From Kiritimatiellia bacterium (GTDB taxonomy: Bacteria > Verrucomicrobiota > Kiritimatiellia > CAIQIC01 > Lenti-01), in the NCBI GenBank assembly GCA_017540905.1, contig JAFYAC010000011.1:1-61325 (forward strand): a DNA stretch of 61,325 bases. Direction: 5' to 3'. Below are positions 16,175 to 31,708 of the stretch, one piece after another (position 1 is the first letter of the stretch; each line of letters begins with the position of its first letter). The notes below the pieces were generated by a model that was given only the letters and a program-made list of their open reading frames with translations, was not told the DNA's origin and searched no databases. The translations under genes were made by a program, and so were the position numbers.

Positions 16175-16199
16175 GGGAGGGCCGCGCTTCGTCGCGGCC
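16175..16199 (+). repeat. Single REP-A (GGAG-GGCCGCG-N6-CGCGGCC)
   Basis: gggagggccgcgcttcgtcgcggcc between the convergent M48 and RHS genes. Confidence 0.85.
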
Positions 16200-16458: not shown

Positions 16459-19400
16459 CTATCTAAGAATGAAATCCACCCACTCCCCCCATGACATATC
16501 CCATATCGGCTTGGAGTCCCCACTCACCACCTCAAAAACTACATTGACCCCCATTTGCACAAAGGGAGAAATCCTTGCTTCCGCAGCCTGCATTGGTGTC
16601 ATGGCGGCAGAAAATCCTTGTTTAATTGGAATGTGAGCCACATCCGCTGCCACAACTGTGGATTTGGTGATTGCTTTGGTTGCAGCTTCAGATGCAGCCA
16701 GCTCGGCATAAGGTTGCATTCTTCCCAACATTTTGTCCGAAGGATCATCGGCAACAGTTCGGTAGGCGGCATATCCAACACCAACAATCGTCGAGGCTAC
16801 CGCATATTTGGCTTGGACAGCCGTTTTCGCGCCAATGATGGCACCCTTCACCCCCGCATCCACAGCGGTCTTGCCCAATTCAGCCACATTGGATAATACG
16901 AAATTGCGCAACTCCGTTCCAGACATGCCCATGGATTTTCCAGCCCGATAAGAGCTGGCCCCCACCGCATAGCTTCCTACACCATAAATTGCTGCATCAG
17001 CCACTGCCAACAATGTAATGGTTGCGGTAATCACAAATTCACCGTCAGAATCCGTATACGCTAACGGATTTCGCCCTGCATACGCATACAAATTCAAGTC
17101 CAGAGCATCACCGATCCACTCATCCGGGAACTCCATCCCCAGCGGGTCGGGCGAGGCGAACGAACCGAAGCGAGACAGCATGGCGCGGGCTTCGAAATGG
17201 TGCATGCCGGTTTCGGCGTCGAGTTCCTTGCCGGCGAAGCCCCACTCGCCGGCGACGTCGCCGACGGAGGCGCGGGTTTCGCCGTTGGGCCAGTAGGCCA
17301 ACGCGCCGAGCAAGGAGCCGTCGCGGCCGGTGAGGCAGTCGGTCGAGCCGAGGGCGTCGGCATGAATCCAGCGGATGCCGGCGGGCGAGAGATTCCCGGC
17401 GGCGGCGCGGGTCTTCCGCGAGACCTTGACGAACGCGGCGGCAGACGGGGGAATGTCGTCCAGCGCGTTGGTTCCGCCATCGACCCCGGAAACGCGCGAG
17501 GCCCACTCCGCGCGTCCGTCGGGAGCTGCCCCGGCAATCGTCCAGACGGCGTCGGCTCCGGCCCGTTCCAGCGCCTTGGCGGAGACGCGCCGCCCGAACG
17601 CGACGGGATGCACGCCGGGTGCCAGCGCCACGCCACCTCCCTCCGCCGGTGCCATTCCTTTCCAGACGCCCATCCAGGCCTCCGGTGCGTCCACCATGAA
17701 CACGGAATCCGCACGGACGCTATCCCCCGGCACCGCGTCACGCCAATCGTCCGCCGCCGTGTCGAACACGCGGACTCCCCCATCCGCCGCGGCAGTACCG
17801 AACACGTCCCGGACGGTTGTCCCATCGTCCGGCGTCCCGGCGACGCCGACAAGGTTCCATCCCTTGCGGAGGGGAATCCACGCGCGGGCCATCCCGGACG
17901 TTCCCACGCGGTCGCTGAACCGTGCCACGGGCACGTTGCCCCGCCGCGCACACTTGACGGGCAGGCCGTCGCGCAACTCGAAATCGGCGTCCACGTACAG
18001 GACGGAACTTTCGGTTCCCTCCCGCGGTACCACCCGCTTCCACACGCGCCGCCCGCGCCAGTCACGCCGGTATTCGGCGCGCATCGCCCCGTCCTCCGCC
18101 GCCGCCAGCCGCCCCCGCGCATCCCATTCGAAGCGCATGTCCCCGCGCCGCACGAGATTCCCGGCATCGTCGTACCCCATCGACTCGCCGGACGCCGTGG
18201 CGACTAGGGCCTGCGGGCCGGGAGGATCGCCCGGAAGACGTCCCCCGCGGCCGGAACCACCGGCAACGCCGCCATAGCGCATTTCGCCGAGGTCGGTGTC
18301 GCCTGTCCCTCCCGTCTGACGGACAAGGTTCCCCGCATCGTCGTAAGCCATCTCCAACGCCAATCCGGCAACAGCCCTCCCGCTTTGGGAGGGCCGCGCT
18401 CCGTCGCGGCCGCATGCCAAGCGCGTCCCTGACACGCTCAAGTCACTTTCCATCGACTCGGCCCGGACAAAGCCGGGCCCTCCCGTTTCCAAGCCTTGCG
18501 CAGTGACATCGCCACGGGAGGGCCGCGCTTCGTCGCGGCCGCCGGCCCGGACGGAGCCGGGCCCTCCCGAGGCGGAATCCGCGCTTTTTGAAAACGGTTC
18601 CTGTCCTCCCGCGACCTCGTCGAGACGGAACTCCACCAGCCGCGACAGTCCATCGTAGCCCATGGCGCGCCCCGCGCGGAACGGTCCGTCCCCGGACGCT
18701 CCGGCGAATGGCGCTTCATCGCGCGCATCGCCTATTCCCAAAACGTTGGAAAGCCGGTCGTAGCTGTAGTCGAAATCGCACAGCGTCTCTCCGGCGGTCT
18801 CGCCGGCGCCGGCGACCCGCACGCGGCGTACGCGCCGCCTCGGATCGAACTCCCAGGTGGCGACGGTGCCGTTGGCGTTTTCGGCGCGCAACGGCGCACC
18901 GTCGGGGGCATAGCGCGCGGCCTCCAACAGCCCCGGAATCCGCGACACCATCCCCCGCGCATCGTACACGGTTTCCACGCGGTCCCCGTCGGGATATGTC
19001 CTCGCCACGGGCCGGTCCATCGCGTCGTAATCCCATGCCGAAAGGAAATCCAGTGCCTGCCCCGTGCCGGGGTGGACAATCCGTTTGACGCGCTCCCCGA
19101 CGAGTCCTCTCGGCGTGTAGCCCGTGAACTCGGCTCCGGTGTCGTCCTCGACCCATGCCAGCCGCCCCGCAGTGTTGGTGAAAGCGGGGAACTCCGCCGG
19201 GGGTTCGTCGTAGTGGTAGCGGACGGTGGGAGGGACATCCATGGTCGCACTGTCGGCACGGGCGCGACGGAGCGCGGCCCTCCCGGAGGCCATGCCGGAC
19301 TCCAGGCGCGTTTCCTCCAGCACGCGGTTGGCCCCGTCGTAGGCATAGCGGACCACCGCCCCGCGCGCGTCGCGGGTTTCCACGAGATTCCCCGCCCCGT

Positions 19401-22400
19401 CGAACGTGCGTTCGAAGGTGCCCGCGTTGGGGTCGTGGACGAAAATCCGCCGTCCTGCGCCGTCGTGGCGGTGGCGCCGCGTGTTGCCCATCGGATCGGT
19501 GACGGACACCAGCCTCCCCCCGGCATCGTAGGTGTAGCGGATGGGAATCTCGCGGACGGTCCCGCCCTCCCGCAACCGTCGCACCAGTTGCACCAGCCGC
19601 CCCAAGCCGTCGGTCCGCCGCGTCGCAGGGGTCGCCGCGTTGGGGGAACGGGGCTGGGTGTCTTCGGCATCCCATTCCTCGGTTTCCAGAGGCAGGTGGA
19701 AGGCAAGCGACTCCGCCCGGGCCTCCGGCGCGTCTTCCGATTCGGGTGGCTGCAGGGTCCGCGTTTCGCGCCCCATTTCGTCCCGCCAGCTGTCGACGCA
19801 CGCGGCGTCCCCGTCCGGCAACCGGTAATCTTCCACGCCGTTCTCGAACGGAAGGAAGGCCCGCGCAACCTCGCCCCGTGCCGTCCGGCACACGGCCCCC
19901 GCGTGGATCCAGTGCCCGGCATCCGCGCCCTCGGACACGGTCCCGAACTCCCGCCCGCCGCCGTCGGAATACGCGTGCGACACCAACTGTCCGGGCTTCC
20001 CCGACTGCTCCCGGTTCCGTGTCGTGGTGCGTTGCAGCCCGGACTCGCCCGTGGCCAGCCGCCCCGTCGCCAACCGCCCATCGCGTGCGTATGAATACGC
20101 CAGCTTCCGCACGGGATCCGCCAACCGGTATTCCCATTCGACCGTCGGCAACGCCGCCGTGTCCCCCGGCTTCACCAATCCCACCGGACGCCAGAACGAA
20201 TCGTACAGGCATCGTGTCACCTGCCCTGCCGGATCGGTTGCCTTCAACAAAACATCCCCGCCCAAGTCCCATTCGCCTAACGTCGAAAGCTCCTTTCCAT
20301 CCCCGACCTCGACGGTTTCCTTCACGACGTGCGTATGGAAAACAGCATCCCACTCGAAGCGCCGTTCGTGGCCCGCGCCTTCCTCCGTCCACGCGCCGTC
20401 GCGCTCGGCCACGGGATTTCCCCAGGCGTCCCAGGCGGTCCGCCCCGTGACGATGGCCGCATCCGGCGCCACCCGCGGGTCGCCGACCGCCGCTGTTGCC
20501 TCGCCCAACGGCGGGGGAACCGTCCCGGCGTTCAGCGCTTCCTCGACCCGCGCAGGCAGCCCCCGCCCGCCAAGCCGGCCCAGCGGGAGCCCCGTGAACG
20601 CCTCCCCGTCGTAGTAGGTCCGCCGTTCCGACACGAAGGCCCCGTACTCGTCCGTCACGCGCTCTCGGCAAGGCTTGCCGAGAATCCACGCATTCAAGTC
20701 GATGGCGTAATCCGTCACGGTGAACCGTTCGTCGTCAGGCGTGGTACTGGCACTTGTCTTGCGCTCCGGCCGCGACGAAGCGCGGCCCTCCCCATCGGAT
20801 GCATCGCCTTGGGAGGGCCCGGCTTCGTCCGGGCCGTCGTCCGCGGGGCTCGACTGGGACGCTCCATCCACGCCTCTTGCGTCCGGCCGCGACGAAACGC
20901 GGCCCTCCCCATCGGATACATCGCCTTGGGAGCATCCGGCTTCGTCCGGGCCGTCGTCCGCGGGACTCGACCGGGACGCTCCATCCACGCCCCTTGCGTC
21001 CGGCCGCGACGAAGCGCGGCCCTCCCCCGAAACCACGCCCCACTCTTTCTTTCTGATTTCGTTGCCGAAAATGTCCGTTTCGCTCTCGGTGAGCACTACC
21101 GCCGGGGCCCGTTCCGGCGCGCGGGAATCCCTCCGACGCAACGCGTCGTTGGCTTCCGGCATGGTCGTCCGCGTCTCCGCCACCCACACCTGCGAAACCG
21201 TCCGCCCGTCCCGCGTCGACGCCGGAACCGACCATTCAGGATGCTCCTTGCCCGCCGCATCCCGGTACGTGCATCCGCCCTCAGGACCGTGGAGGGTCCG
21301 CACCCGCCAATCGGTTTCCGTGCGGCTGAACACCTCCCCGTCCGCCGCGAATTCGCCCGGCACCCGCCGCTCCCTCCCCGCGTCTTCCAGCACCGCGATT
21401 TCGCTCCACAGCGGACGCCCCTTCAGCGGTTCCTCCTCGTAGCCGCGCGTTTCGTCGAACTCGTCCACCATGCCGTCGCCGTTGTTGTCCAGTCCGTCGG
21501 GCATGCCGGTGTGGAAAGCCGTCCGGGTCACGCTCCCGCGGTGGCGTTCGTCGCCCCGCGCGACCTGTTCCGCGAAGGCGAACCCGCGGAACTCCCGTTC
21601 GAACGCGTCGTACCACCCGTCCGCGTAGGACAGCTCCGTCGTCTCGCGGTCCTCTCCCTCCTCCATGTCCAGGTCCACCCCGAACAGGCGCTCGATCTTC
21701 GTGACGGCCAGCGACGAAAACGGCAACCGCGTCCGCCACGGCCTACCCGCCTCCCGCGCCGCAATCCGCAGCTCGGTCGTTGTGGCATGTTCCAGCCGCG
21801 TCCGCACGCCAAGGCCGTTGTCGGTCTCCACCAGCACGTTCGGCTTCGTCCCGGGCGCGAAGTCAAACCACTCCACCGCCCACGCGCCCTGCGCCGGGCT
21901 CCAGTTCTCCCACACGAAGTCGGTCGTGCCGTTGCCGTTCATGTCGGCCATCCGCAGGACCGTCCTCCCCGCCACGAACTCCGGAGTCCCGTCCACTTCC
22001 AGTGCCTCCGAGAACGAGAGGTTTCCGAGATTCACCCAGTAGCGCAACCGGTCGTAGGCCACCGCGACCACGTCGGAAATGCCGTCCCCGTTGACGTCCG
22101 CGATCCGGACGTTGTCCTCCTGGACATCCCCAAGGTCGATGTCCCGCGCCATTTCGGTGCGTGTTCCCCACGCACCGTTCCCGCGGTTGGGCCAGAAGTC
22201 GATTTCCAGCGACCGCCCGAACACGGTCTTCCGCACGAGGTCGAGCAACCCGTCCCCGTTCATGTCCGCGAGCTCGACGTTTCCGTTGGGCGTCCCGTCC
22301 GCGTTCGCGAACTGCACGTCGTCGGCCCACGTGATGCCGCCGGTTTCGGGCTCCCCGAAGAGATATATCCCGCGCTCTTCCCAGCGGTCGCCCCGGTTGA

Positions 22401-24408
22401 GCCAGTACAAAAAACCGCCCGGCGTCGTCCGCATCCAGTCCATCCGCCTGTCGCCGTCGAGGTCCAGCGACCGCACGTCCGCGTCCCCGAACCCGAACGC
22501 CGGCGGCGGCCCGCCGAAGTCCCGCTCCCCGCCCCAGGCCGCACGGCCCCCGCCGTCCGCTTCCGCCGCGAATGCGTTGGGATACCACGTGAAGAATCCC
22601 GACCCCGCCCCGCCCTTCTGCACCAAATCCACGCGGCTGTCGCCGTCCATGTCGAGGAGCTGCACGCCCTCCTGGTCCAGCGTCACGCCCGTCGGCCATG
22701 CCGCGAACGGCTCCGCTTCCGCGAACGCTCCCCGCCCGCGGTTCCACCACACCTCGTGGCCCCCCGTCAGCGGGTCGGTACGGAAGAAATCGGGCAACGC
22801 ATCCCCGTCGATGTCCGCCAGCGCCATGTCCGGGCTGCCCAAGGAGTACGGCGGCCCGCCCGCGCACCGCCCGAAGCCGCCCGCCCCCGGCGCGAACGGC
22901 TCGTACCCGAACCTCAACGGCGGCAGCCACGATGCCTCGGCTCCCGCCCGCCCATCGTATTGCGTCACCCGCCTCAGCAGCGAAAACGCAAGCGGGACGC
23001 CCGTCCCGACATCCACCCCATCCCCCTCGCCGTATCCGAGCGCATACCGCCGGATGATCCGCCCTTGGCTGGACACCCGGATTTCGCGGCACCGCCGCCC
23101 CGTCGTCTCCGCAAACCCACCCAGATGCGACGTGAACGCATCCTCCCTCGCCTCCCACTCGAAGGCCACCTCGTGCCGCGCCTCGCTCCCCGCCGCACCC
23201 CAGCGAATCCGCGAGGGATAGAGCCGCCCCGGCGAATCCTCGAACGTCGCATAGCTCCACTCGATGCGGTTTCCGTGCACATCCTCGGTCGCCTCGACGT
23301 ACCACGCGAACGTTGACCCGAACGCCCCGCCCGCCTTCTTTCCCGTGCGGGCCGACGCCGTCGTGCCCAGCCAGTGGCGCATGCCGTCGCGCTGCCGCAC
23401 CACCCAGCCGTCGCCCTCTCGAAGGGCCCGCGACCAGTCCGATTCGATTTTCCGCCGCCACGACCCGTCCGAAAGCGGCACCAGTTCCGCCCCGTCCAGC
23501 AGGAACACGTCCCCGTCGCCGTAGGTCGGGATGCCCTTGGCCGTCCGCCTGCGGATGTTCATCGGCTCCCAGTTCCAGCCCAATCCGAACGGTCCGTTGC
23601 CGCTCCCCGCGTTGTAGGCGAGGGCGATTTGCGGCGCCAGCCCCGCTGTCCCCGCCGGGACCTGGATGTCCACCCGGTACGCCGCCGTCCCGCTGTTCAG
23701 CTGCGGTTCGAAGCCGCTCCCCAAGCCCTCGATCGAACCCGGCCCGTCCGGCAACGAAATCTTCTCCACCCCCACGCCCGTCTTCCCCTCGTCCGCCCCA
23801 TGCGCCACCACCGCCGCCAGCAGCAATGCAAACACCGCCCAAAAACCTCCCCGCCGGGAGGGCCGTGCTCCGTCACGGCCGCCGCCCAAAGGACTCGTCA
23901 TGCGTGCACCTGCCACGCCCCCTGTACACGGCCGCGACAAAGCGCGGCCCTCCCCTGCTCCGCGCTCCCTCCCAGCACTCCCAGCACGCGCCCGGGAGGG
24001 CCCGGCTTCGTCCGGGCCGCCGCTCAAGGGACTCAACAGGCGTGCATCTGCCACGCCCCGCGCACACGGCCGCGACAAAGCACGGCCCTCCCCTGCTCCG
24101 CGCTCCCCCCCAACACTCCCTGCACGCGCCCGGGAGGGCCCGGCTTCGTCCGGGCCGCCGCTCAAGGGACTCAACAGGCGTGCATCTGCCACGCCCCTCG
24201 CACACGGCCGCGACAAAGCGCGGCCCTCCCCTGCTCCGCGCTCCCTCCCAGCACTCACTGCACGCGCCCGGGAGGGCCCGGCTTCGTCCGGGCCGCCGCT
24301 CAAGGGACTCAACAGGCGTGCACCTGCCAGCCCCCCCTCACTCGGCCGCGACAAAGCGCGGCCCTCCCCGTTCCGCCCATTGTGCATTGTGCATTCTACA
24401 TTCTGCAT
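16459..24408 (-). CDS. Fused TcB-TcC-like RHS/YD toxin (SpvB N-domain, FG-GAP repeats, TcdB mid regions, RHS core, C-terminal cargo) with in-frame REP insertions
   Basis: ISLPDGPGSIEGLG..F, LAYNAGSGNGPFGLGW, DIDGD/DMNGDG repeats, YDAFEREFRGFA, YD repeats, GKELDAETG..HFEAR...PDPL and NLYAYAGRNPLAYTDSDG. Start uncertain: ATG 24408 (just after the upstream stop) or ATG 23901; signal h-region FWAVFALLLAAVVAHGA at ~23845-23795. Confidence 0.85.
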   Translation of the reverse strand: MQNVECTMHNGRNGEGRALSRPSEGGLAGARLLSPLSGGPDEAGPSRARAVSAGRERGAGEGRALSRPCARGVADARLLSPLSGGPDEAGPSRARAGSVGGERGAGEGRALSRPCARGVADARLLSPLSGGPDEAGPSRARAGSAGRERGAGEGRALSRPCTGGVAGARMTSPLGGGRDGARPSRRGGFWAVFALLLAAVVAHGADEGKTGVGVEKISLPDGPGSIEGLGSGFEPQLNSGTAAYRVDIQVPAGTAGLAPQIALAYNAGSGNGPFGLGWNWEPMNIRRRTAKGIPTYGDGDVFLLDGAELVPLSDGSWRRKIESDWSRALREGDGWVVRQRDGMRHWLGTTASARTGKKAGGAFGSTFAWYVEATEDVHGNRIEWSYATFEDSPGRLYPSRIRWGAAGSEARHEVAFEWEAREDAFTSHLGGFAETTGRRCREIRVSSQGRIIRRYALGYGEGDGVDVGTGVPLAFSLLRRVTQYDGRAGAEASWLPPLRFGYEPFAPGAGGFGRCAGGPPYSLGSPDMALADIDGDALPDFFRTDPLTGGHEVWWNRGRGAFAEAEPFAAWPTGVTLDQEGVQLLDMDGDSRVDLVQKGGAGSGFFTWYPNAFAAEADGGGRAAWGGERDFGGPPPAFGFGDADVRSLDLDGDRRMDWMRTTPGGFLYWLNRGDRWEERGIYLFGEPETGGITWADDVQFANADGTPNGNVELADMNGDGLLDLVRKTVFGRSLEIDFWPNRGNGAWGTRTEMARDIDLGDVQEDNVRIADVNGDGISDVVAVAYDRLRYWVNLGNLSFSEALEVDGTPEFVAGRTVLRMADMNGNGTTDFVWENWSPAQGAWAVEWFDFAPGTKPNVLVETDNGLGVRTRLEHATTTELRIAAREAGRPWRTRLPFSSLAVTKIERLFGVDLDMEEGEDRETTELSYADGWYDAFEREFRGFAFAEQVARGDERHRGSVTRTAFHTGMPDGLDNNGDGMVDEFDETRGYEEEPLKGRPLWSEIAVLEDAGRERRVPGEFAADGEVFSRTETDWRVRTLHGPEGGCTYRDAAGKEHPEWSVPASTRDGRTVSQVWVAETRTTMPEANDALRRRDSRAPERAPAVVLTESETDIFGNEIRKKEWGVVSGEGRASSRPDARGVDGASRSSPADDGPDEAGCSQGDVSDGEGRVSSRPDARGVDGASQSSPADDGPDEAGPSQGDASDGEGRASSRPERKTSASTTPDDERFTVTDYAIDLNAWILGKPCRERVTDEYGAFVSERRTYYDGEAFTGLPLGRLGGRGLPARVEEALNAGTVPPPLGEATAAVGDPRVAPDAAIVTGRTAWDAWGNPVAERDGAWTEEGAGHERRFEWDAVFHTHVVKETVEVGDGKELSTLGEWDLGGDVLLKATDPAGQVTRCLYDSFWRPVGLVKPGDTAALPTVEWEYRLADPVRKLAYSYARDGRLATGRLATGESGLQRTTTRNREQSGKPGQLVSHAYSDGGGREFGTVSEGADAGHWIHAGAVCRTARGEVARAFLPFENGVEDYRLPDGDAACVDSWRDEMGRETRTLQPPESEDAPEARAESLAFHLPLETEEWDAEDTQPRSPNAATPATRRTDGLGRLVQLVRRLREGGTVREIPIRYTYDAGGRLVSVTDPMGNTRRHRHDGAGRRIFVHDPNAGTFERTFDGAGNLVETRDARGAVVRYAYDGANRVLEETRLESGMASGRAALRRARADSATMDVPPTVRYHYDEPPAEFPAFTNTAGRLAWVEDDTGAEFTGYTPRGLVGERVKRIVHPGTGQALDFLSAWDYDAMDRPVARTYPDGDRVETVYDARGMVSRIPGLLEAARYAPDGAPLRAENANGTVATWEFDPRRRVRRVRVAGAGETAGETLCDFDYSYDRLSNVLGIGDARDEAPFAGASGDGPFRAGRAMGYDGLSRLVEFRLDEVAGGQEPFSKSADSASGGPGSVRAGGRDEARPSRGDVTAQGLETGGPGFVRAESMESDLSVSGTRLACGRDGARPSQSGRAVAGLALEMAYDDAGNLVRQTGGTGDTDLGEMRYGGVAGGSGRGGRLPGDPPGPQALVATASGESMGYDDAGNLVRRGDMRFEWDARGRLAAAEDGAMRAEYRRDWRGRRVWKRVVPREGTESSVLYVDADFELRDGLPVKCARRGNVPVARFSDRVGTSGMARAWIPLRKGWNLVGVAGTPDDGTTVRDVFGTAAADGGVRVFDTAADDWRDAVPGDSVRADSVFMVDAPEAWMGVWKGMAPAEGGGVALAPGVHPVAFGRRVSAKALERAGADAVWTIAGAAPDGRAEWASRVSGVDGGTNALDDIPPSAAAFVKVSRKTRAAAGNLSPAGIRWIHADALGSTDCLTGRDGSLLGALAYWPNGETRASVGDVAGEWGFAGKELDAETGMHHFEARAMLSRFGSFASPDPLGMEFPDEWIGDALDLNLYAYAGRNPLAYTDSDGEFVITATITLLAVADAAIYGVGSYAVGASSYRAGKSMGMSGTELRNFVLSNVAELGKTAVDAGVKGAIIGAKTAVQAKYAVASTIVGVGYAAYRTVADDPSDKMLGRMQPYAELAASEAATKAITKSTVVAADVAHIPIKQGFSAAMTPMQAAEARISPFVQMGVNVVFEVVSGDSKPIWDMSWGEWVDFILR
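18387..18568. repeat. Four REPs (A+,B-,A+,B-) inside the RHS coding sequence
   Basis: Translated as GGPGSVRA / GRDEARPS / GGPGFVRA / GRDGARPS in the open RHS frame. Confidence 0.9.
19260..19285 (-). repeat. Single degenerate REP-A inside the RHS coding sequence
   Basis: gggcgcgacggagcgcggccctccc, translated as GRAALRRA. Confidence 0.75.
20766..21027. repeat. Tandem REP array (117-bp unit, 5 REPs) inside the TcB-like coding sequence
   Basis: ccggccgcgacgaa at 20766, 20883 and 21000; encodes a 39-aa repeat GEGRASSRPDARGVDGAS.SSPADDGPDEAG.SQGD.SD. Confidence 0.92.
23856..24370. repeat. Tandem REP array (138-bp unit, 8 REPs) in frame upstream of the RHS signal peptide
   Basis: Units at 23927, 24065, 24203 and 24341; 46-aa repeat GEGRALSRP...GGPDEAGPSRARA. 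Confidence 0.92.
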
Positions 24409-24415
24409 TGCTCTC

Positions 24416-25321
24416 TCACCGGCTCGCCGGACCCGGTCCCGCGGGGGGCCGACCTTCGCCGCCCGCCTCTTCCAGCAACCGTTCCGCCGCGCCGTCCGCG
24501 CGCCCGATTTCCGCATCGCCCCGCAACCCGTCCACGAACTGCCGGTACGCATCCCGTTGCGCCTCCTGCACCATCCGGCGCGCCACGCCCGCCCGCGCAG
24601 CCTCGAAGGGCGTCGTTTGCGCCGACCGCACCTCCAGCCGCTGCACCCAGTACACCGCGCGGTCCGTCTCCAGCGGTCCTTCCACCGACCCCATGCCCCC
24701 GGTCCCGAACAGCGCCTCCGTCACCTCCGCCGGATACCGCCGCTCGGCCCGCCCTTCCGCCAACCAACCCGTCACGCCGCCCACCGCGCGCGCCGACGCA
24801 TCCGTGCTCCACTTCTGCACCGCCTCCGCGAACCCGGCCCCTCCCTTCTCCTCCAGCCAGGTCGCCGCCGCATCCCGCCGCGACTCCCAGTCCGCCGCGT
24901 CCTTGGATACCTCCAGCACCCGCCCGCGCCCCACCGCCGGACGCGTGAACTCCTCCGGATGCGCCTCGTACCACGCCTGCATCGCCGCCTCGTCCGGATC
25001 CTCCCCGCGCACCTCCCCCACCCTGCGCGCCAACAAGCGCTGCACCGCCATCGCCCGCACCGTCTGCACGATGTCGTCCTCATCGAAGATTCCCTCCCGG
25101 CGCGCCTCCTCCGCCAACAAAACAAAATCCTCCGCCTCCGCCAGCGCCCGTTCCGCCGACTCCCCGTCACGGATGGCATATCCCCCCTTCGCCGCCGCGC
25201 GCACCGCATCCGCGACGGTGACCGGCGTCCCGCCAACCCGAGACAGCGTCCCGTCATCCGCCCACGCAACGCCTCCCGCCAGAACCAGCGCCACTATCGC
25301 CCATTCAAACGCTTTCATCAT
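24416..25321 (-). CDS. Secreted PpiC/parvulin-like (SurA/PrsA-like) foldase
   Basis: Signal peptide; LLAEEARREG; WYEAHPEEF; FAEAVQKWSTD.SARAVGG.TGW; GPLETDRAVYWV; PFEAAR. Confidence 0.75.
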   Translation of the reverse strand: MMKAFEWAIVALVLAGGVAWADDGTLSRVGGTPVTVADAVRAAAKGGYAIRDGESAERALAEAEDFVLLAEEARREGIFDEDDIVQTVRAMAVQRLLARRVGEVRGEDPDEAAMQAWYEAHPEEFTRPAVGRGRVLEVSKDAADWESRRDAAATWLEEKGGAGFAEAVQKWSTDASARAVGGVTGWLAEGRAERRYPAEVTEALFGTGGMGSVEGPLETDRAVYWVQRLEVRSAQTTPFEAARAGVARRMVQEAQRDAYRQFVDGLRGDAEIGRADGAAERLLEEAGGEGRPPAGPGPASR

Positions 25322-25640: not shown

Positions 25641-25693
25641 ATCCATTCCACATTCTGCATTGTGCCTTCCGCATTGTGCATTGTGCATTTCCC

Positions 25694-28600
25694 CTAAAAC
25701 CCCGGAAACTCCGGCGGATTCCCGTACGTGTACGTGAACCGCACCACGATGTCCTTGATCTTCGAGAAATCAATGTCCTTGTTCGCCGGGTTCTCCGTGT
25801 CGATCTTCAGGACCCACTGCGTCGCCGCGATGGGACGCCCCTTCAGCCCGGCGACGCTGAACTCCGCCGACGGACGCCCCCCCGTCGCCCCGTTGATTTT
25901 CGCGGGAATGGTGATGCCATACGCCGTCCGGTCCGACCGCCCCACCAGGAACGACAGGTGCATCAAGTCGTCCGCCCACGGCGGTTCCGCCCAGAAGCGG
26001 CGGATGGACACCAGCCCACTCTCCGTCAGCGTCACCTCGGCCACCTGCTTTGTGCTGAACCCGCTCTCCGCATAGATGTCCACCGCGATGGTGTCGATGC
26101 GCATGTTCCACCGTTCCGCCGTCGTCGGGAACAGCGAGTTGTCGGCGATGGTCGTCGCGAACGTGAACTCCAGCGACGGATTCTCCACGTTCCAGTAGTT
26201 GTTCGTCCGGTGCCCCGCCAGGTACGTCCGGAACGCCTGCACGCTCTCCGCCATCGTCATCTCCCCGTTGTCCGTGCGGAACCCCAGGATGTCCTCCCGC
26301 AGGGAAATCGGTTCCGCCGTCACCGGCCCCGCGTTGTTCGGACCGCGCACGCTCGTCACCGAAATCCGCCGCAGCTTGCTGTCCCACGCCTTCAGCGCGT
26401 CCAGGTAGTCCTTCGCCTCGTCCGCGCACGTCGCGTTGAACAGCGAATCCAGCTGCGTGAACTGGTCGAACAGCGGATTCTCCAGCGACGCCGACTCGTT
26501 GCAGTTGATCGGCACCACCACCGGGTTCTGGTACGCCTCCGCCCACTCGTATTCCAGCGTTTTCGCCAGCCTGTACAGCCGGTCGATCGCGTAGTCCATC
26601 TCGCTCTCCGCCCGCTCCATCGCGCGCGACACCACCACCCGGAACGACGGATCCTGGAAGTACAGGTCCGCCGCCGTCTCCCGCGTGTGCGCCAGGTCCG
26701 CAATCAGCCGATCCATCCGCGTCAAAGCGTTGTCCAGCTGGAGTTCCGCCACGGCAAGGGCGTTCTTCTGGCGCTCGACCTGGATTTGGAGATTCGTAAG
26801 TTCAAGAAGAATGGTCTTTATTTCAGCCGCGGCATTGACCCCTTGTACAGTCAACTGTTGCATGGCCGATAACATGTCCTTTGTTGAGTTAATTGCCCCC
26901 ATTGCCGTTCCCCAACCAATTTTTGTCCATGCTTCATCGCCCCACCCTGCAAAAGCCATGCACCCTTGAAGAACACCCAAAGTGAGATCCAAAGCCATTA
27001 ACTGCTCTGTGGTACTTATCGTGGTATCAACAATCGTTGCGGTCGCCCATTCTGCGATTTTCACACGCTCAAAGACATTCTTCACACTCTCCACCGACTG
27101 CAACAGCGCCATCTGTTGGTCCAGCACCGCCAACACCAGCTCCCCCAACTCTCCCAACGCCGCCGGATCTGCATTCGGATAGTTCTCCTCCAGCGACTTC
27201 ACCCTCGTCCTCACCGCGTTCTTGAAATCCCGCTGGTCGTCCACTGTCGCCAAGTTGTTGTAGAGCTCGGGGTCGATGTGAGTGAGGTTGTAGAGGGGCG
27301 TGATGTAGCTCGCCCGCTGGTTCAGCAGCTCCGCCCGCAGCTGCGTCTGGTAGCTGTCGTAGGTCCGGTCCTCCTGCCGCGCCGCGACTTCCGCCTCCCG
27401 CACGTCCGCCACCGCCTCCTGCGCATCCTGGTAGATGGCCGAAAAACTCTCGTTGGGAATGAAGTCCCCGTTGTCGCCGAGCGGCGTGAGCCCCGCGTTG
27501 ATTTGCTCGAACAAGTCCCGCGCATTCTTCAAGTGCGCGAGGCACAGGTTGCCCTCGTTGAGCTCGAAATCGTCCTCGCTCTGGCACGCCGCCAGCAGCG
27601 CCATCCCCAGATAGCTCTGCAACCCCGACTTCTTGCACTCCTCCTTCGCCTCCTGGCGCGCCGTCTTGTCCGAAAGCGACAGCCGGAACAGTTTTTTCGC
27701 CTTCTCCATGCTCCCCAGCCCCATCCGTTCCAGGCATGTCGCCATCTGCCAGTATTCATTCTTGATGGGCACCGGATACGGGCTCAGCGACGGATCCAGG
27801 AATGAAATGTACCGCGGAAACGCCGGATACGGCTCCGCCCCCGGCACCGCCCGCGACCGCAGGATATCCGGCCCGTAGCGGTAAATCGCGTTTGCGGGAT
27901 AAATCAGCGCCGCGTAGAAGTCCAGCAACGCCACGTCGATGGCCTGGGTCTCCTCCCTCACTCCCGGCGGTGCCGGCAGCGTCTCCGGAGGGTTCTCGGG
28001 ATCGTACTCGGCCATCCGCGGATACTTCAGCCGCAGCGCCTCCGTCAGCCGCGAGTTGCCCAGCAGCACCTGGCCTTGCAACAGCTCGTTCGCCGTCTCC
28101 GCGAACGTGGTCCGCAGATCCGGATCCGCCGTGTCGCCGAACAAGTCCGCCGAAGCTTTGTCATAGGCTTTTTCCAGATGGTGGAAATAAACGTAGCGGT
28201 CCTCCTGCCCCTTCTCGTCCACCCCGCGCGCCGAATACGCTTTCACGATGTCGCTCCACGTGTATTCGTCCGGGAATCCCTTCCGGTAGGCCCGTCCCAG
28301 CGAGAGCTCCCCTTTGTCGTCCTCCACCACGATGTAGCCCGCCTTCGTCTCCGACAGCTCGTTGGTCGCCGTCTTGTCCTTGTCCAGCACGTAGCTCACC
28401 GTCAGCGTCACGTCGAACGCTCCCTTGCTCCGGTAGGCATGCGTCGCGTTGCCCTTCGTCCCCTCCTCCACCGACCCGTCCCCGAAGTTCCACCGGTAGC
28501 CCGTGATCCGTCCCGCCTGCCGCAACTCCGCGTCCGCGTAGAACCGTGCCGTCGCCGTCCCCGTTCCCGTCTCCAGCGACATCAGGCGCGGCCCCCCGGA

Positions 28601-29056
28601 AAAATCCACCGACAGTTCCGCCGTCCTCGCGTTGTACGGCCGGATGACCAGCTCCGCCTTCGTCCCCGCGTCGAGACCGTAATAGTCCTCCGTCATCCCC
28701 TCCTGCACCAGTTCCCGCCCGTCCGTCGCCGTGACCATGAGCCGCGGCAGCACGTGACGGAACCCGTCCTCCTCCACGTCGTTCGCGTCGAACACCGCGT
28801 ACCATGTCGCGTCGATGCCCGCCGCCCCCGTCCCGCGCGCGTCAACCGTCCCGTCCCCGTCGAAGTCCCACGCCCACGACGCGATGCTCTCCCGGGGCAG
28901 TCCCTTCTCGCCCAGATAGTGGAACGTCACCGCATCCCCCCCGTACACCCGCACCGGCGTCGCATAGAAACGCAACTCCGCTCCGTCCGCCAGCGCTCCC
29001 GCCGCCGCCATCCAAGCCAGCGCCGCCGCCAAAACCATCGCATTTTTTCTGCTCAT
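25694..29056 (-). CDS. Secreted PKD-domain protein with TcA-like coiled-coil/pore region and TcB-binding-like C-terminus
   Basis: Signal peptide; two PKD motifs (WAWDFDGDG; YRWNFGDG...HAY...FDVTLTV); long helices around a hydrophobic hairpin; LYRLAKTLEYEW, ISLREDILG and QWVLKID..N..IDFSKIKDIVVRFTYT resemble the TcA C-terminus (recognised by eye). Confidence 0.65.
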   Translation of the reverse strand: MSRKNAMVLAAALAWMAAAGALADGAELRFYATPVRVYGGDAVTFHYLGEKGLPRESIASWAWDFDGDGTVDARGTGAAGIDATWYAVFDANDVEEDGFRHVLPRLMVTATDGRELVQEGMTEDYYGLDAGTKAELVIRPYNARTAELSVDFSGGPRLMSLETGTGTATARFYADAELRQAGRITGYRWNFGDGSVEEGTKGNATHAYRSKGAFDVTLTVSYVLDKDKTATNELSETKAGYIVVEDDKGELSLGRAYRKGFPDEYTWSDIVKAYSARGVDEKGQEDRYVYFHHLEKAYDKASADLFGDTADPDLRTTFAETANELLQGQVLLGNSRLTEALRLKYPRMAEYDPENPPETLPAPPGVREETQAIDVALLDFYAALIYPANAIYRYGPDILRSRAVPGAEPYPAFPRYISFLDPSLSPYPVPIKNEYWQMATCLERMGLGSMEKAKKLFRLSLSDKTARQEAKEECKKSGLQSYLGMALLAACQSEDDFELNEGNLCLAHLKNARDLFEQINAGLTPLGDNGDFIPNESFSAIYQDAQEAVADVREAEVAARQEDRTYDSYQTQLRAELLNQRASYITPLYNLTHIDPELYNNLATVDDQRDFKNAVRTRVKSLEENYPNADPAALGELGELVLAVLDQQMALLQSVESVKNVFERVKIAEWATATIVDTTISTTEQLMALDLTLGVLQGCMAFAGWGDEAWTKIGWGTAMGAINSTKDMLSAMQQLTVQGVNAAAEIKTILLELTNLQIQVERQKNALAVAELQLDNALTRMDRLIADLAHTRETAADLYFQDPSFRVVVSRAMERAESEMDYAIDRLYRLAKTLEYEWAEAYQNPVVVPINCNESASLENPLFDQFTQLDSLFNATCADEAKDYLDALKAWDSKLRRISVTSVRGPNNAGPVTAEPISLREDILGFRTDNGEMTMAESVQAFRTYLAGHRTNNYWNVENPSLEFTFATTIADNSLFPTTAERWNMRIDTIAVDIYAESGFSTKQVAEVTLTESGLVSIRRFWAEPPWADDLMHLSFLVGRSDRTAYGITIPAKINGATGGRPSAEFSVAGLKGRPIAATQWVLKIDTENPANKDIDFSKIKDIVVRFTYTYGNPPEFPGF

Positions 29057-29098: not shown

Positions 29099-29456
29099 CG
29101 GCCCGGACAAAGCCGGGCCCTCCCTGCTTTCCTCCCCCACCATCGCTCTATCCTCTTCCCGGGAGGGCCGCGCTTCGTCGCGGCCGCTGCGCATGGCTCG
29201 CCACAGGAACGTCCCTATCCCGCCCCACGGACCCGGCCCGGACAAAGCCGGGCCCTCCCTGCTTTCCTCCCCCACCATCGCTTCATCCCCCACCCGGGAG
29301 GGCCGCGCTTCGTCGCGGCCGCTGCGCATGGCTCGCCACAGGAACGTCCCTATCCCGTCCCGCGGACCCGGCCCGGACAAAGCCGGGCCCTCCCTGCTTT
29401 CCTCCCCCACCATCGCTCTATCCTCTTCCCGGGAGGGCCGCGCTTCGTCGCGGCCG
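29099..29456. repeat. REP array left of RAYT (135-bp unit, 6 REPs)
   Basis: gcccggacaaagccgggccctccc at 29101, 29236 and 29371 alternating with REP-A. Confidence 0.92.
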
Positions 29457-29509
29457 TCGTCCCCAAAAGCGAACTGGACACCCGTTCCTTTTTCTGCCAT
29501 CCTTCCCCC

Positions 29510-30013
29510 ATGAACTCCAGTTCCCAATCTTCCCCACCCCTCCCCTCCCGTCGCCGCCCTTCCCGCAACTCCGTCCATGAACGCCCCGGCGACCGCCGCC
29601 CCGTCATCCTCTTCGTGACCGCCGTCGCCGACCACCGTCAACCCGTATTCGCCCATCCAGACGCCCACGCCTGCCTTCTCGACGCCTGGCGTGCCGCCAA
29701 AGACTGGCTGGTCTGCCGCTATGTCATCATGCCCGATCACATCCATCTCCTCTGCTGTCCCGGCGCGCTCCCCGTTCCCGATTTCCACCGCTGGATGAAA
29801 TACTGGAAAGCCAAAGTCTCCTTTTCCTTCCCCCTCCCCCACTCCCGCCCCCTCTGGCAACGCCAATGCTGGGACACCCAAATCCGCGCCGGCGAACACT
29901 TCTCCGCCAAATGGGAATACCTCCGCGCCAACCCCGTCCGCAAAGGCCTCGTCGCCACCCCCAACGACTGGCCGTATCAGGGCGAACTCTTTTCCATCCC
30001 CTGGCGCGACTGA
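29510..30013 (+). mobile_element. rayT: REP-associated tyrosine transposase (RAYT/TnpA-REP, Y1 HUH family), 167 aa
   Basis: ILFVT, YVIMPDHIHLL (HUH), LWQ..CWD..IR and EYLRANPVRKGLV...DWPY; flanked on both sides by REP arrays; antisense to the host operon. Confidence 0.9.
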
Positions 30014-30041: not shown

Positions 30042-30553
30042 GGGGAGGGCCGCGCTCCGTCGCGGCCGCAGTGCATGGCTCGCCCCAGGAACGCCCCTGT
30101 CACGTCCCGCGGACTCGGCCCGGACAAAGCCGGGCCCTCCCTGCTTCCGCACCGCCCACCCGCTTCGCTTCCCGCTTGCGGGGAGGGCCGCGCTCCGTCG
30201 CGGCCGCCGGGCATGACTCGCCCCAGGAACGCCCCTGTCACGTCCCGCGGACTCGGCCCGGACAAAGCCGGGCCCTCCCTGCTTCCGCACCGCCCACCCG
30301 CTTCGCTTCCCGCTTGTGGGGAGGGCCGCGCTCCGTCGCGGCCGCCGTGCATGGCTCGCCCCAGAAACGCTCCTATCCCGCCCCACGGACCCGGCCCGGA
30401 CAAAGCCGGGCCCTCCCTGCTTTCCTCCCCCACCATCGCTCCACCCTTCTCCCGGGAGGGCCGCGCTTCGTCGCGGCCGCCGTGCATGGCTCGCCCCAGG
30501 AACGCCCCTGTCACGCCCCACGGACTCGGCCCGGACAGAGCCGGGCCCTCCCA
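30042..30553. repeat. REP array right of RAYT (138/138/135-bp spacing, 8 REPs)
   Basis: gcccggaca at 30118, 30256, 30394 and 30529 alternating with REP-A. Confidence 0.92.
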
Positions 30554-30595
30554 TGCCCATCCATTACACATTATGCATTGTGCATTATGCATTGT

Positions 30596-31708
30596 TCAGT
30601 ACGTCGGGTCCACCTTGATGATGAAATTCACTGCGCCGGATGGCGGCTGGACGGTGTCCGAACGCCCGTAGATAGGTGAGGAGCGAGAAGCATCAAAATT
30701 GGCATTGTGGCTACCGCCTGTGCCTCCACCATAGCCATTGCTACTTGGAATGGCAAAGACACCGTTTACCACGCCAAGATGTCCAATACCTCCCACTGTC
30801 CCTGTAATATTCGGCAACCCCGCCTCCACATATTTACCCACCTTGTGTTCCCCCGCCCCCCACAACGTCCGGTTCCGCAAATCCGGCAACTTGAAATACG
30901 TAACCCCATTCTCCGTGATATTCGTCTCATAGCCCCACGTCGTCCCGATATTTGCGAACAGCTTCGGATAGGTAGTGGAAGCCACCGCCCGCCCGTCGCA
31001 CAGCAACCAACCAACAGGAACATTTTCCGCAGGCCCCGCAAACGGCATGATAATTCCCGGGGGCAGAAATGCTGACGCCAGGTCGTTCTTCATTGCTGCG
31101 GACAGATGGTCCGGCTCGATGGCCCCGTCGGCAATTTTCGCGGACGTCACGCTCTTGTCCGCCAACTTTGCCGTCGTCACGTTCTTGTCGGCAATCTGTG
31201 CGGCCTTCACACTCTTGCTCGCAATCCTTGCTCCCGCGATATACCCCGTCCTCGGGTCCGTCGCCCCAGATGCCAGGATGGCGCTCCAGTCAGCCCCCCG
31301 CAAGGACTCGCTGTCCTTGGCGAAGAACGCCGGCACGATCATCTGCCGCGGCACCATCTCCGGGTCGGCCGTGTTGGCGTTCCCGTCCGCGTCGATGGTG
31401 ATGCCCAGGTAGCGTGTCTGGGTGAAATCCTGTCCGTCCAGTGCCACGATGGAGCCGAGGAAGACGTTGACCATTCCATTGACCAGCCCCACGCCCGTGT
31501 GCCGCTCGGTCCAGAGGGCGGTGCCGCCCACCGGCGCGTCGTAGAGGTTGAACACGATGGTGTAGGTCCCCTCGGAATAGGGCGTGCCCGCCTGGTCCGT
31601 GAGACGCCCCTGGAACGGAATCACCTGCGGCGCCGGCGCCGCCCATCCCATCCAAGCCCACGCAACGGCCATCGTCGCCACCCATGCCATTTTCATCTGC
31701 TTTTTCAT
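30596..31708 (-). CDS. Secreted tail-fibre-like protein with phage tail collar domain
   Basis: Signal peptide; IPFQGRLTD...LWTE.H N-domain; VTTAKLAD/VTSAKIAD repeats; PPGIIMPFAG...GWLLCDG...YPKLFANIGTTWG...FKLPDLR; QPP..AVNFIIK. Confidence 0.85.
   Translation of the reverse strand: MKKQMKMAWVATMAVAWAWMGWAAPAPQVIPFQGRLTDQAGTPYSEGTYTIVFNLYDAPVGGTALWTERHTGVGLVNGMVNVFLGSIVALDGQDFTQTRYLGITIDADGNANTADPEMVPRQMIVPAFFAKDSESLRGADWSAILASGATDPRTGYIAGARIASKSVKAAQIADKNVTTAKLADKSVTSAKIADGAIEPDHLSAAMKNDLASAFLPPGIIMPFAGPAENVPVGWLLCDGRAVASTTYPKLFANIGTTWGYETNITENGVTYFKLPDLRNRTLWGAGEHKVGKYVEAGLPNITGTVGGIGHLGVVNGVFAIPSSNGYGGGTGGSHNANFDASRSSPIYGRSDTVQPPSGAVNFIIKVDPTY

What the first reader, a model, noticed from the sequence alone, without database searches (positions are those of the whole stretch)
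18387..21027. RAYT-type REP arrays inserted in frame inside the TcB/RHS protein
Seen: three REP insertions (18387-18568, 19260-19285, 20766-21027) lie inside a frame that stays open for >2400 codons. The largest has a 117-bp (39-aa) unit between EWGVVS and PDDERF, and the same REPs are read in different frames (GRDEARPS, EGRASSRP, GRAALRR, GGPGFVRA). Known: REPs/REPINs are described as almost exclusively extragenic; coding insertion is known for unrelated elements such as Rickettsia palindromic elements. Inference: a RAYT-driven element is adding and expanding peptide loops in a toxin shell, with its probable mobiliser 9 kb away.
Basis: partly seen in the sequence, partly recalled or inferred. 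Interest (0 to 1): 0.85.

Follow-up and report, generated by a model that had tools for sequence, protein, structure and literature searches.

The report
Mobile DNA hairpins inside a toxin-shell gene
Short mobile DNA palindromes that normally sit between genes have landed in frame at three places inside a large toxin-capsule gene of a gut bacterium and are read as floppy protein loops, a real but already described kind of event seen here in unusually large and changeable form.

Summary
A 2697-codon open frame (16459-24552, minus strand) encodes a TcB/TcC-type RHS cocoon protein. It carries ten copies (one decayed) of the genome's REP palindrome at three sites. Relatives at 39-72% identity have short loops at all three sites. 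Five closer relatives carry inserts of different, always in-frame lengths: site A 6/62/74/101 residues, site B 27/38/42/92, site C 11/91. The window's site A equals a relative's plus one 117-nt unit.

The gene is intact and under purifying selection (core dN/dS 0.17), whereas the inserts evolve almost neutrally (0.71-0.79). Contigs from two independent studies bridge sites B and C without gaps. In an AlphaFold model the only long low-confidence stretches are the three inserts, each between two beta strands.

A bona fide RAYT gene flanked by REP arrays lies 8.5 kb away. All 41 REPs of the contig lie within 19 kb around it.

Intragenic RAYT-type REPs, including clusters coding 43-82 residues, were described in 2013 (PMC3733652). 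This scan also found single in-frame REPs before, in CPR genomes.

Verdict: a new, large and polymorphic member of a known kind. A role for RAYT in the insertions is inferred, not shown.

The parts
16459..24552 (-). Host gene: TcB/TcC-fusion-type RHS cocoon protein, 2697 codons from ATG to stop. The real start probably lies near 23840-23901, just before a signal-peptide-like stretch. The C-terminal tip (residues about 2505-2697) is a variable toxin-like domain with no family match.
   Evidence: ORF and translation. Pfam SpvB, FG-GAP_3, TcdB_toxin_midN and RHS_repeat. Best fold match TcdB2-TccC3, 6sup/4o9x, E 1e-37, TMq 0.59. Core dN/dS 0.16-0.17. No Pfam hit for the tip.
20734..21036 (-). Site A insert (residues 1173-1273). 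The loop is 101 residues where insert-free homologues have 5-12. It holds five REPs (one decayed) arranged as a lone REP plus two 117-nt units.
   Evidence: Model residues 78-172 have pLDDT below 50 and lie between strands 66-74 and 177-186.
19231..19311 (-). Site B insert (residues 1748-1774). The loop is 27 residues where the closest insert-free homologues have 9. It holds one REP (19260-19284) read as GRAALRR.
   Evidence: Model residues 653-671 are mostly below pLDDT 50 and lie between strands 645-651 and 678-682.
18349..18621 (-). Site C insert (residues 1978-2068). The loop is 91 residues where homologues have 7-19. It holds two REP dimers (18387-18484 and 18516-18568). It is 240 nt longer than the empty site of L016.
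   Evidence: Model residues 883-963 have pLDDT below 50 and lie between strands 873-878 and 966-971.
23856..24368 (.). Array of 8 REPs with a 138-nt period at the 5' end of the open frame, most likely upstream of the true start. The last REP (23856-23880) may be translated if the ATG at 23899-23901 is used.
   Evidence: Gene callers began relatives at different points (P0002 after the REP, P0003 and P0004 before it).
16175..16199 (+). Single REP about 260 nt downstream of the stop codon.
29501..30010 (+). RAYT (REP-associated tyrosine transposase) gene, flanked by REP arrays at 29100-29455 and 30043-30552.
   Evidence: NCBIfam NF047646 scores 90.3 bits against a cut-off of 80. It is the only match above cut-off in the genome. 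Flanking arrays.

Best explanation
REP/REPIN elements of this genome's RAYT-associated repeat family inserted into three loop-coding positions of an intact, secreted TcB/TcC-type RHS cocoon gene. REP DNA has no stop codon in any frame. So every insertion or array change whose length is a multiple of three yields only a Gly/Arg/Ala/Ser/Pro/Asp-rich, probably disordered loop between two beta strands of the shell. The fold tolerates such loops, while out-of-frame events are removed by selection. The inserts are therefore tolerated passengers. They were gained in the ancestor of a small clade (sites A and B) or later (site C), grew by whole repeat units, and were lost once. The closeness of the RAYT gene and the very high local REP density explain why this gene was hit three times. 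Shown: insertion, in-frame polymorphism, selection on the host gene, near-neutral evolution of the insert peptides, and loop location in a model. Inferred: mobilisation by RAYT, the mechanism of array growth, translation of the inserts, and their neutrality.
For: 1. Repeat family. The assembly holds 338 REPs in 159 clusters, and 93 of the 159 clusters are the canonical inverted A+B- dimer. The RAYT exceeds its curated cut-off and is flanked by arrays.

2. Empty and filled sites.
- Site A loop lengths: 5-9 residues in P0004-P0012, L017 and L018; 62 in L016; 74 in P0003; 101 in the window and L015.
- Site B: 9 in seven of the eight insert-free relatives compared (P0010 has a 27-residue loop of its own, unrelated sequence); 27 in the window and L015; 38 in L016; 42 in P0004; 92 in P0003.
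- Site C: 11-15 in all others, including L016 and P0003; 91 in the window and L015.
- At DNA level the window's site A equals L016's plus 117 nt, and site C is +240 nt against L016.

3. Separate events. The same REP type is read in two frames and in both orientations at the three sites.

4. Selection. Core dN/dS is 0.17 (2022 codons against L015) and 0.16 (2017 codons against L016). The inserts give 0.71 (219 codons) and 0.79 (96 codons). Of the 40 listed strain differences, 27 fall at third codon positions, p = 1e-5.

5. Independent assemblies. Contigs of 4435 nt (X5) and 3994 nt (X12), from two other studies, cover 18200-20794 with 0 gaps. L015 is a separate metagenome record with the same three insert lengths.

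6. Structure. The AF2 model has mean pLDDT 80.5. Apart from the first 14 residues, the three inserts are the only stretches below pLDDT 50 (site B as three 3-5-residue runs), and each lies between two strands.

7. Loop tolerance. A distant homologue (P0044) has an unrelated Cys-rich 65-residue insert at site A. Site B varies from 5 to 27 residues among the 40 other family members compared.

8. Locality. All 41 REPs of the contig lie within 16-35 kb, where 1.8 would be expected at the genome-wide density.

9. Phylogeny. The five insert-bearing proteins form one clade with 100/100 support. P0004, which lacks site A, groups with L016, which has it (support 82/87 and 86/92).
Against: - No RNA or protein evidence shows that the inserts are translated.
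- RAYT activity on these REPs is untested, and their tag is GGGAGG rather than the canonical GTAG.
- REP cores inside the gene differ at only 6 of 100 aligned positions between the window and L016, against 33% at third codon positions of the core gene. The whole site A block is about 2-3 times less diverged than its flanks. A purely neutral passenger should decay faster, unless gene conversion or recent allelic recombination keeps it fresh.
- Both large inserts would fold into very stable RNA structures: -158 kcal/mol (z -3.0) and -131 kcal/mol (z -6.8). Such structures could matter for expression.
- Site A is covered only by short overlapping unitigs in the runs laid, and no single contig spans it.
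- My census of coding versus non-coding rests on a home-made codon-usage gene finder.
Confidence: 0.78

Rival explanations
1. The in-gene REP arrays are kept because they do something. They could act as length-variable surface loops that diversify the toxin shell, in the manner of a contingency locus. Or they could act as DNA/RNA hairpins inside the ORF that tune mRNA stability, ribosome transit (the GGGAGG tag resembles a Shine-Dalgarno sequence; own knowledge) or local recombination.
For: REP cores show 6/100 differences against 33% at silent sites of the same gene pair. Insert block A is less diverged than its flanks. There are four different filled lengths at site B and three at site A among five close relatives. 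The predicted RNA structures are strong. A second RHS gene (C149) also carries a decayed REP dimer in frame.
Against: Insert peptides evolve with dN/dS 0.71-0.79, so the peptides themselves are not conserved. The low DNA divergence is also expected from gene conversion among hundreds of REP copies or from a recent recombination tract, and the gene is visibly mosaic. My REP mask was defined on the window copy, which biases the count towards conservation. One clade member lost site A with no visible effect on the rest of the gene up to where its record becomes unreliable.
Confidence: 0.15
2. The gene is a decaying pseudogene or an assembly chimera, and the open frame through GC-rich, stop-free REP DNA is a matter of chance.
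For: The genome has 67% G+C, so long spurious open frames are common. The assembly is a fragmented draft of 178 contigs. The gene's codon-usage score per codon (0.10-0.22) is below the genome median of 0.40.
Against: Family domains and homology run the full length. dN/dS is 0.16-0.17 in four comparisons. At least eight distinct filled insert states in five relatives are all in frame. Contigs from other studies bridge sites B and C with no gaps.
Confidence: 0.03
3. The repeats are not insertions. They are native coding modules of the protein that spread from this gene into the rest of the genome.
For: The contig around the gene has the highest REP density in the assembly.
Against: All homologues outside the five-member clade lack them. 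155 of 159 clusters lie outside genes by my census. The same family, with far fewer copies, occurs in genomes of the same genus and family (23, 7, 3 and 9 exact matches). The copies are read in different frames and orientations.
Confidence: 0.02

Closest known systems
Intragenic GTAG/CGTC REPs (Di Nocera et al. 2013, BMC Genomics 14:522, PMC3733652; abstract and passages read)
   Same: RAYT-type REP singles, dimers and clusters lie wholly inside ORFs and are read in frame. Some genes are hit twice. Comparison with shorter homologues is used to show insertion. The highest GTAG count is in O. terrae, a PVC bacterium like this one. The authors favour neutral insertion at tolerant positions.
   Different: The reported inserts mostly code 20-30 residues, and the largest clusters code 43-82. 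Here the net gains are about 92-96, 18 and 76-80 residues in one gene. Here a series of natural alleles shows gain, unit duplication and loss. The tag here is GGGAGG, not GTAG or CGTC.
Rickettsia palindromic elements (RPE; Ogata et al. 2000, as cited in PMC3733652 and PMC3184786)
   Same: Palindromic repeats are inserted in frame in genes that stay functional, and they code extra peptide segments.
   Different: RPEs have no linked RAYT in those accounts, and RPE-1 is a longer element. Here the elements are a classic REP/REPIN population with its own RAYT nearby.
REPIN-RAYT systems and BIME arrays (Bertels and Rainey 2011, PMC3116915; Nunvar et al. 2010, PMC2817692; search listings and abstracts only)
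   Same: A short GC-rich hairpin with a conserved 5' tag, inverted dimers as the main unit, hundreds of copies, arrays with alternating orientation, and a RAYT gene flanked by REPs.
   Different: Those systems are described as essentially extragenic. Here three clusters lie in a coding sequence.
Tc toxin TcB-TcC cocoon (TcdB2-TccC3, PDB 4o9x and 6sup)
   Same: SpvB N-terminus, FG-GAP propeller, TcdB mid/N region, RHS-repeat shell, a C-terminal DPLG...DSDG motif and a variable tip. These entries are the best fold match.
   Different: It is a single fused chain with a signal-peptide-like N-terminus, from an uncultured gut bacterium. No TcA partner was found. About 190 extra residues are REP-derived loops.

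Membership tests
REP / REPIN-RAYT repeat system | Short GC-rich imperfect palindrome present in high copy number (more than 100 per genome) | tested here: met
   A 25-nt core with a 7-bp stem. 338 copies pass a stem filter in the 3.5-Mb draft, and 283 are exact pattern matches.
REP / REPIN-RAYT repeat system | Conserved GTAG (or CGTC) tetranucleotide at one end of the hairpin | tested here: not met
   The invariant tag is GGGAGG. PMC3733652 reports degenerate tags such as GTGG in O. terrae, but GGAG is not among those I read.
REP / REPIN-RAYT repeat system | Inverted dimers (REPINs) as the predominant arrangement | tested here: met
   93 of 159 clusters are A+B- or B+A- dimers with start-to-start spacing mostly 46 or 73 nt.
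REP / REPIN-RAYT repeat system | A RAYT (Y1 HUH transposase) gene flanked by the same REPs | tested here: met
   NF047646 scores 90.3 bits against a cut-off of 80. REP arrays lie on both sides, at 29100-29455 and 30043-30552. Pfam Y1_Tnp reaches only 17.2 bits, below its cut-off.
REP / REPIN-RAYT repeat system | RAYT cleaves and mobilises its REPs | not testable with these tools
   This needs biochemistry or mobilome sequencing.
Intragenic (translated) REPs in the sense of PMC3733652 | The REP lies wholly inside a real ORF, in frame, with homologues lacking it | tested here: met
Intragenic (translated) REPs in the sense of PMC3733652 | The insert is present in the mature protein | not tested
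   No RNA run holds the stretch, and there are no proteomic data.
Tc toxin BC component | SpvB + FG-GAP propeller + TcdB mid/N + RHS shell architecture and cocoon fold | tested here: met
   Pfam. Foldseek to 6sup/4o9x gives E 1e-37.
Tc toxin BC component | Partner TcA pentamer encoded in the genome | tested here: inconclusive
   PF18276 (TcA_TcB_BD) has no match in the 84%-complete draft, and the control rang nowhere either. The co-oriented upstream 1120-residue protein shows only a PKD domain.
Tc toxin BC component | Autoproteolytic release of the C-terminal toxin inside the cocoon | not tested
   The DPLG...DSDG motif is visible in the translation. That this is the protease motif is my recollection.

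The most novel reading that the evidence does not exclude
The REP arrays inside this RHS/Tc cocoon gene are not mere passengers. They would be a maintained, RAYT- or recombination-driven device that changes the length of shell loops in whole in-frame units, with 117 nt equal to 39 residues, while keeping live hairpins inside the mRNA. That would give a polymorphic toxin a second variable region besides its C-terminal tip. RHS shells would then be preferred hosts for REPINs, since a second RHS gene of the same genome also carries one.
Probability: 0.12. Interest if true: 0.75.

Novelty: new member of a known kind. Interest (0 to 1): 0.45.

Why it matters
This case shows with natural alleles how a bacterial non-autonomous mobile element can add about 190 residues to a large structured protein without breaking it. 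It also shows that such inserts can grow by whole repeat units and be lost again while the host gene stays under purifying selection. That makes it a clean case for studying how repeats create protein loops, how long REPs stay 'alive' inside coding DNA, and how tolerant the RHS cocoon is to loop insertions. It also warns annotators that REP-coded peptides (GRDEARPS, EGRASSRP, GPDEAGPS and the like) in PVC-group proteins are repeat-derived. It does not overturn current views, because intragenic REPs have been known since 2013.

Tried and rejected
- **Search with the site A peptide.** I searched the 100-residue site A peptide against longer proteins (176-2000 residues). There were 5201 candidates and none scored E <= 0.001, so this gives no survey of other REP-decorated proteins.
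- **Genome-contig scan with P0002.** It returned only one distant actinobacterial relative, which was of no use.
- **Thirty related genomes searched with the whole protein.** No orthologue was found, only generic RHS-repeat hits and REP-peptide hits.
- **Sequencing runs.** No RNA holder is listed, so expression is untested.
- **Joints in the laid contigs (table 5).** Joints such as 18413-18512 and 20839-21001 have sides under 30 nt and fit other REP copies of the metagenome. I did not read them as length variants.
- **Site A bridging.** No single contig bridges site A.
- **Borderline REP cluster C157:22607-22631.** It lies in an open frame with weakly positive coding score on both sides. On inspection it sits between two genes that I read by eye as an HD-domain gene and a NUDIX-like gene (no family search run), so it is intergenic.
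- **TcA partner.** PF18276 gave nothing, and its controls rang nowhere either. Pfam on the upstream 1120-residue protein found only a PKD domain.
- **Orientation of the loops.** No tool returns model coordinates, so I could not tell whether the loops point into or out of the cocoon.
- **Target-site motif.** The empty sites of distant homologues carry GGGA(A/G)G- or CCC(A/T)CCC-like motifs where the REP tags now lie. At 65-72% protein identity this may be coincidence, so I make no claim.
- **Supplementary table of PMC3733652.** This list of host ORFs could not be opened. It may contain RHS-type hosts or larger inserts than the text gives.


Full report
**1. Observation**

The window is contig C120 of a 3.5-Mb draft genome with 178 contigs and 67.4% G+C. 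Earlier notes of this scan call the organism a rumen Kiritimatiellia bacterium. I did not check that label myself. It fits the gut, sheep, bovine and goat metagenome runs that hold the stretch.

A frame on the minus strand, 16459-24552, is open for 2697 codons from ATG to stop. The 25-nt palindrome GGGAGGGCCSNGCNNNGNCNSGGCC occurs 42 times in the window, against 0.18 expected. None of 100 shuffles reached that number.

The 117-nt tandem unit (20765-20881 and 20882-20998, 93% identical) is real. The copies are read in different frames and orientations.

**2. Host gene**

- Pfam finds SpvB, FG-GAP_3, TcdB_toxin_midN and RHS_repeat.
- An AlphaFold2 model of residues 1100-2290, built on 43 sequences (mean pLDDT 80.5, pTM 0.76), matches the TcdB2-TccC3 cocoon best. 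The top hits are 6sup and 4o9x, with E about 1e-37 and TMq 0.59. T6SS Rhs cores and teneurins follow.
- The protein is therefore a fused TcB/TcC-type RHS cocoon with a signal-peptide-like N-terminus and a variable C-terminal tip.
- No TcA-binding-domain family was found in the 84%-complete draft, but that search also found nothing in its control genomes. The co-oriented upstream protein shows only a PKD domain. I file the protein as Tc-BC-like in architecture, not as part of a proven ABC toxin.

**3. The repeats**

- With up to two mismatches and at least 6 of 7 stem pairs, the assembly holds 338 REPs in 159 clusters.
- There are two stem variants, A (GGCCCGG) and B (GGCCGCG). 93 of the 159 clusters are the inverted A+B- dimer, with start-to-start spacing of mostly 46 or 73 nt. 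This is a REPIN-like unit.
- The ORF at 29501-30010(+) matches NCBIfam NF047646, REP-associated tyrosine transposase, at 90.3 bits against a cut-off of 80. It is the only match above cut-off in the genome. It is flanked by REP arrays at 29100-29455 and 30043-30552.
- All 41 REPs of the contig lie between 16 and 35 kb, where 1.8 would be expected at the genome-wide density.
- The family is much rarer in relatives. G000 has 283 exact matches. Two genomes of the same genus have 23 and 7. Two of the 16 other genomes of the same family have 3 and 9, and the other 14 have none. One of the 12 more distant genomes of the same order has 2, with different loop sequences.
- The tag is GGGAGG, not the canonical GTAG, so one defining feature of classical REPs is not met.

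**4. They are insertions**

A search of 5.8 billion proteins found a graded series of relatives. A metagenome scan gave DNA for five of them (L015-L019). The table gives loop lengths in residues between fixed anchors.

| Site | Insert-free relatives | Insert-bearing clade |
|---|---|---|
| A | 5-9 in P0004-P0012, L017, L018 | 62 in L016; 74 in P0003; 101 in the window, P0002/L015 |
| B | 9 in P0005-P0009, P0011, P0012, L017 (P0010 has a 27-residue loop of its own, unrelated sequence) | 27 in the window, L015; 38 in L016; 42 in P0004; 92 in P0003 |
| C | 15 in P0005-P0012, L017 | 11 (empty) in P0003, L016; 91 in the window, L015; P0004's record is unreliable by this point |

- At DNA level the window's site A equals L016's plus exactly one 117-nt unit. 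It is 276-288 nt longer than the empty sites.
- Site C is 240 nt longer than L016's empty site. Site B is 54 nt longer than L017's.
- The extra peptides in P0003, P0004 and L016 are the same REP read-outs (GRAALRRGR, ARTKPGPP, EGRALSRP). L015 and L016 carry the REP cores at those places.
- L017 has one REP just upstream of its gene but none inside.
- Across 40 further family members, site A has 5-12 residues. The exception is one distant protein (P0044) with an unrelated Cys-rich 65-residue insert. Site B has 5-27 residues and site C has 7-19. These are naturally indel-tolerant loops.

**5. The gene is intact and under selection**

- Nei-Gojobori dN/dS for the core, with inserts and ends excluded, is 0.17 against L015 (2022 codons, dS 0.096). 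It is 0.16 against L016 (2017 codons, dS 0.63), 0.17 against L017 and 0.17 against L018.
- The inserts give 0.71 (219 codons against L015) and 0.79 (96 codons against L016).
- Logan contigs from two other studies cover 18200-20794 in one piece with 0 gaps. X5 has a 4435-nt contig with 90 substitutions, and X12 has a 3994-nt contig with 103 substitutions. Sites B and C and their junctions therefore exist in independent samples.
- Of the 40 substitutions listed in that output (109 more were not shown), 27 fall at third codon positions of this frame, p = 1e-5.
- Site A is covered only by short overlapping unitigs in all four runs. Its support comes from the separate records L015 and L016.
- The C-terminal tip (residues 2505-2697) is replaced between the window and L015 (dN 0.88), as is usual for polymorphic RHS toxins.

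**6. Where the inserts sit**

Apart from the first 14 residues, the model's stretches below pLDDT 50 are:

| Model residues | Protein residues | Site | Flanking strands (model numbering) |
|---|---|---|---|
| 78-172 | 1177-1271 | A | 66-74 and 177-186 |
| 653-657, 659-661, 667-671 | 1752-1770 | B | 645-651 and 678-682 |
| 883-963 | 1982-2062 | C | 873-878 and 966-971 |

The rest of the model is mostly above pLDDT 90. I could not determine whether the loops face the lumen or the outside.

**7. History**

- In trees of residues 260-1170 and 1275-1745, the five insert-bearing proteins form one clade with 100/100 and 99/100 support. These are P0001, P0002, P0003, P0004 and L016.
- P0004, which lacks site A, groups with L016, which has it (support 82/87 and 86/92).
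- P0001, P0003 and L016 share the same flanks at site A (VVS..., ...GEGRA-SRPER).
- The simplest reading is this. Sites A and B were gained in the clade's ancestor. Site A was lost cleanly and in frame in P0004. One unit was duplicated in the window/L015 line. Further changes occurred in P0003. Site C was gained in the window/L015 line.
- That makes roughly nine or more length changes, all multiples of three.

**8. Against a purely passive reading**

- REP cores inside the gene differ at 6 of 100 aligned positions between the window and L016. Third codon positions of the core differ at 33% (Fisher p = 3e-10).
- Block A as a whole shows 7-12% third-position divergence, against 19-38% in its neighbours.
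- This could reflect constraint on the hairpins, gene conversion from the hundreds of other copies, or a recent recombination tract. The gene is mosaic, with third-position divergence of about 0.22 in the N-terminal half and 0.45-0.5 in the C-terminal half.
- My mask was defined on the window copy, which biases the count towards conservation.
- The insert RNAs would fold very stably: -158 kcal/mol (z -3.0) and -131 kcal/mol (z -6.8).

**9. Census**

By a home-made codon-usage gene finder, only three of the 159 clusters have coding signal on both sides in one open frame. All three lie in this gene. A fourth is a decayed REP dimer at L001 9052-9103, which lies in frame in another RHS gene on contig C149, just before the conserved core motif. 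It adds about 12 residues relative to homologues at 49-59% identity. One borderline cluster (C157) proved intergenic. Most other REPs inside stop-to-stop frames lie in the first 90 codons or fewer and are probably upstream of true starts.

**10. Mechanism**

*Shown:*
- REP/REPIN DNA was inserted at loop-coding positions.
- The arrays changed by whole units.
- The host gene stayed under purifying selection, while the insert peptides drift.

*Inferred:*
- Because this REP has no stop codon in any of its six frames (read directly from the consensus), about one insertion in three is harmless to the frame. The RHS beta-hairpin turns tolerate long disordered loops, and closeness to the RAYT raises the hit rate.
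- Whether RAYT or simple slippage or unequal recombination drives array growth is open.

**11. Comparison with what is known**

- Intragenic RAYT-type REPs are already in print. PMC3733652 (abstract and several passages read) reports REPs entirely within ORFs in several species. The most GTAG cases are in O. terrae. Inserts are mostly 20-30 residues, and clusters of 43-82 residues occur in Thauera and R. conorii. Some genes are hit twice, and hosts are often DNA-repair genes. The authors favour neutral insertion.
- PMC3184786 (passages read) reviews repeats fused in frame to genes.
- This scan also noted single in-frame REPs in CPR genomes (not tested here).
- Three full-text searches found no paper linking REPs with RHS or Tc proteins. 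The host table of PMC3733652 is a supplement I could not open.
- New here are the host (a Tc-like cocoon), the size (about 190 REP-derived residues at three sites, the largest about 95), the natural allele series showing gain, unit duplication and loss, and the selection measurements.

I class this as a new member of a known kind, of moderate interest.

Noticed in passing
window 24378-24410, 25652-25690, 30570-30600, 31880-31906, 34636-34668: A tandem heptamer (TGCATTG/TGCATTC, about 4 copies) sits at one end of five REP arrays or dimers, always on the side away from the downstream minus-strand gene. In frame it reads as the recurring 'MHNAQC/MQNVEC' peptides of spurious N-terminal extensions. 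Genome-wide, 12 of 32 matches to a loose pattern lie within 150 nt of a REP.
   Followed up: partly
L001 9052-9103 (G000 contig C149, RHS gene at L001 1700-9667): A second RHS-repeat protein (2655 residues) carries a decayed REP dimer in frame (GWPSSVSATADTEAGPPS) just before the conserved core-end motif. Homologues at 49-59% identity are 12 residues shorter there, and closer ones are 6-8 shorter or identical.
   Followed up: yes
window 16459-17040 (residues about 2505-2697): The C-terminal tip of the RHS protein has no Pfam match. It is rich in Gly/Ala/Val stretches and is completely different in the 97%-identical relative L015 (dN 0.88). This is a swapped polymorphic toxin tip.
   Followed up: partly
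window 16459-24552 compared with L016: Divergence along the gene is mosaic. Third-position divergence is about 0.22 in residues 250-1450 and 0.45-0.5 in residues 1650-2400, which points to recombination between alleles. The gene's codon-usage score (0.10-0.22 per codon) is well below the genome median of 0.40.
   Followed up: partly
whole genome G000 compared with relatives G001, G002, G003, G009: The REP family is hugely expanded in this species. It has 283 exact matches, against 23 and 7 in two genomes of the same genus and 3 and 9 in two genomes of the same family.
   Followed up: partly
window 23840-23901: The true start of the RHS gene is ambiguous. An ATG at 23899-23901 would put one REP into the signal peptide's N-region. 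A GTG 10 nt after a GGAGG would start just after the REP. Gene callers chose differently for P0002, P0003 and P0004.
   Followed up: partly
window 25694-29056 (-) and 30596-31708 (-): Co-oriented upstream neighbours are a 1120-residue secreted protein with one PKD domain and a long unassigned region, and a 370-residue protein with a phage tail collar domain. REP arrays separate all of these genes.
   Followed up: partly
protein P0044 (distant homologue), loop equivalent to site A: An unrelated Cys-rich 65-residue insert occupies the same loop as site A, so this position accepts large insertions in other lineages too.
   Followed up: partly
G000 contig C86, 3840-4199 (-): A second RAYT-like ORF scores 77.2 bits, just under the NF047646 cut-off. 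REPs lie only on one side of it, 1.5-2 kb away.
   Followed up: partly
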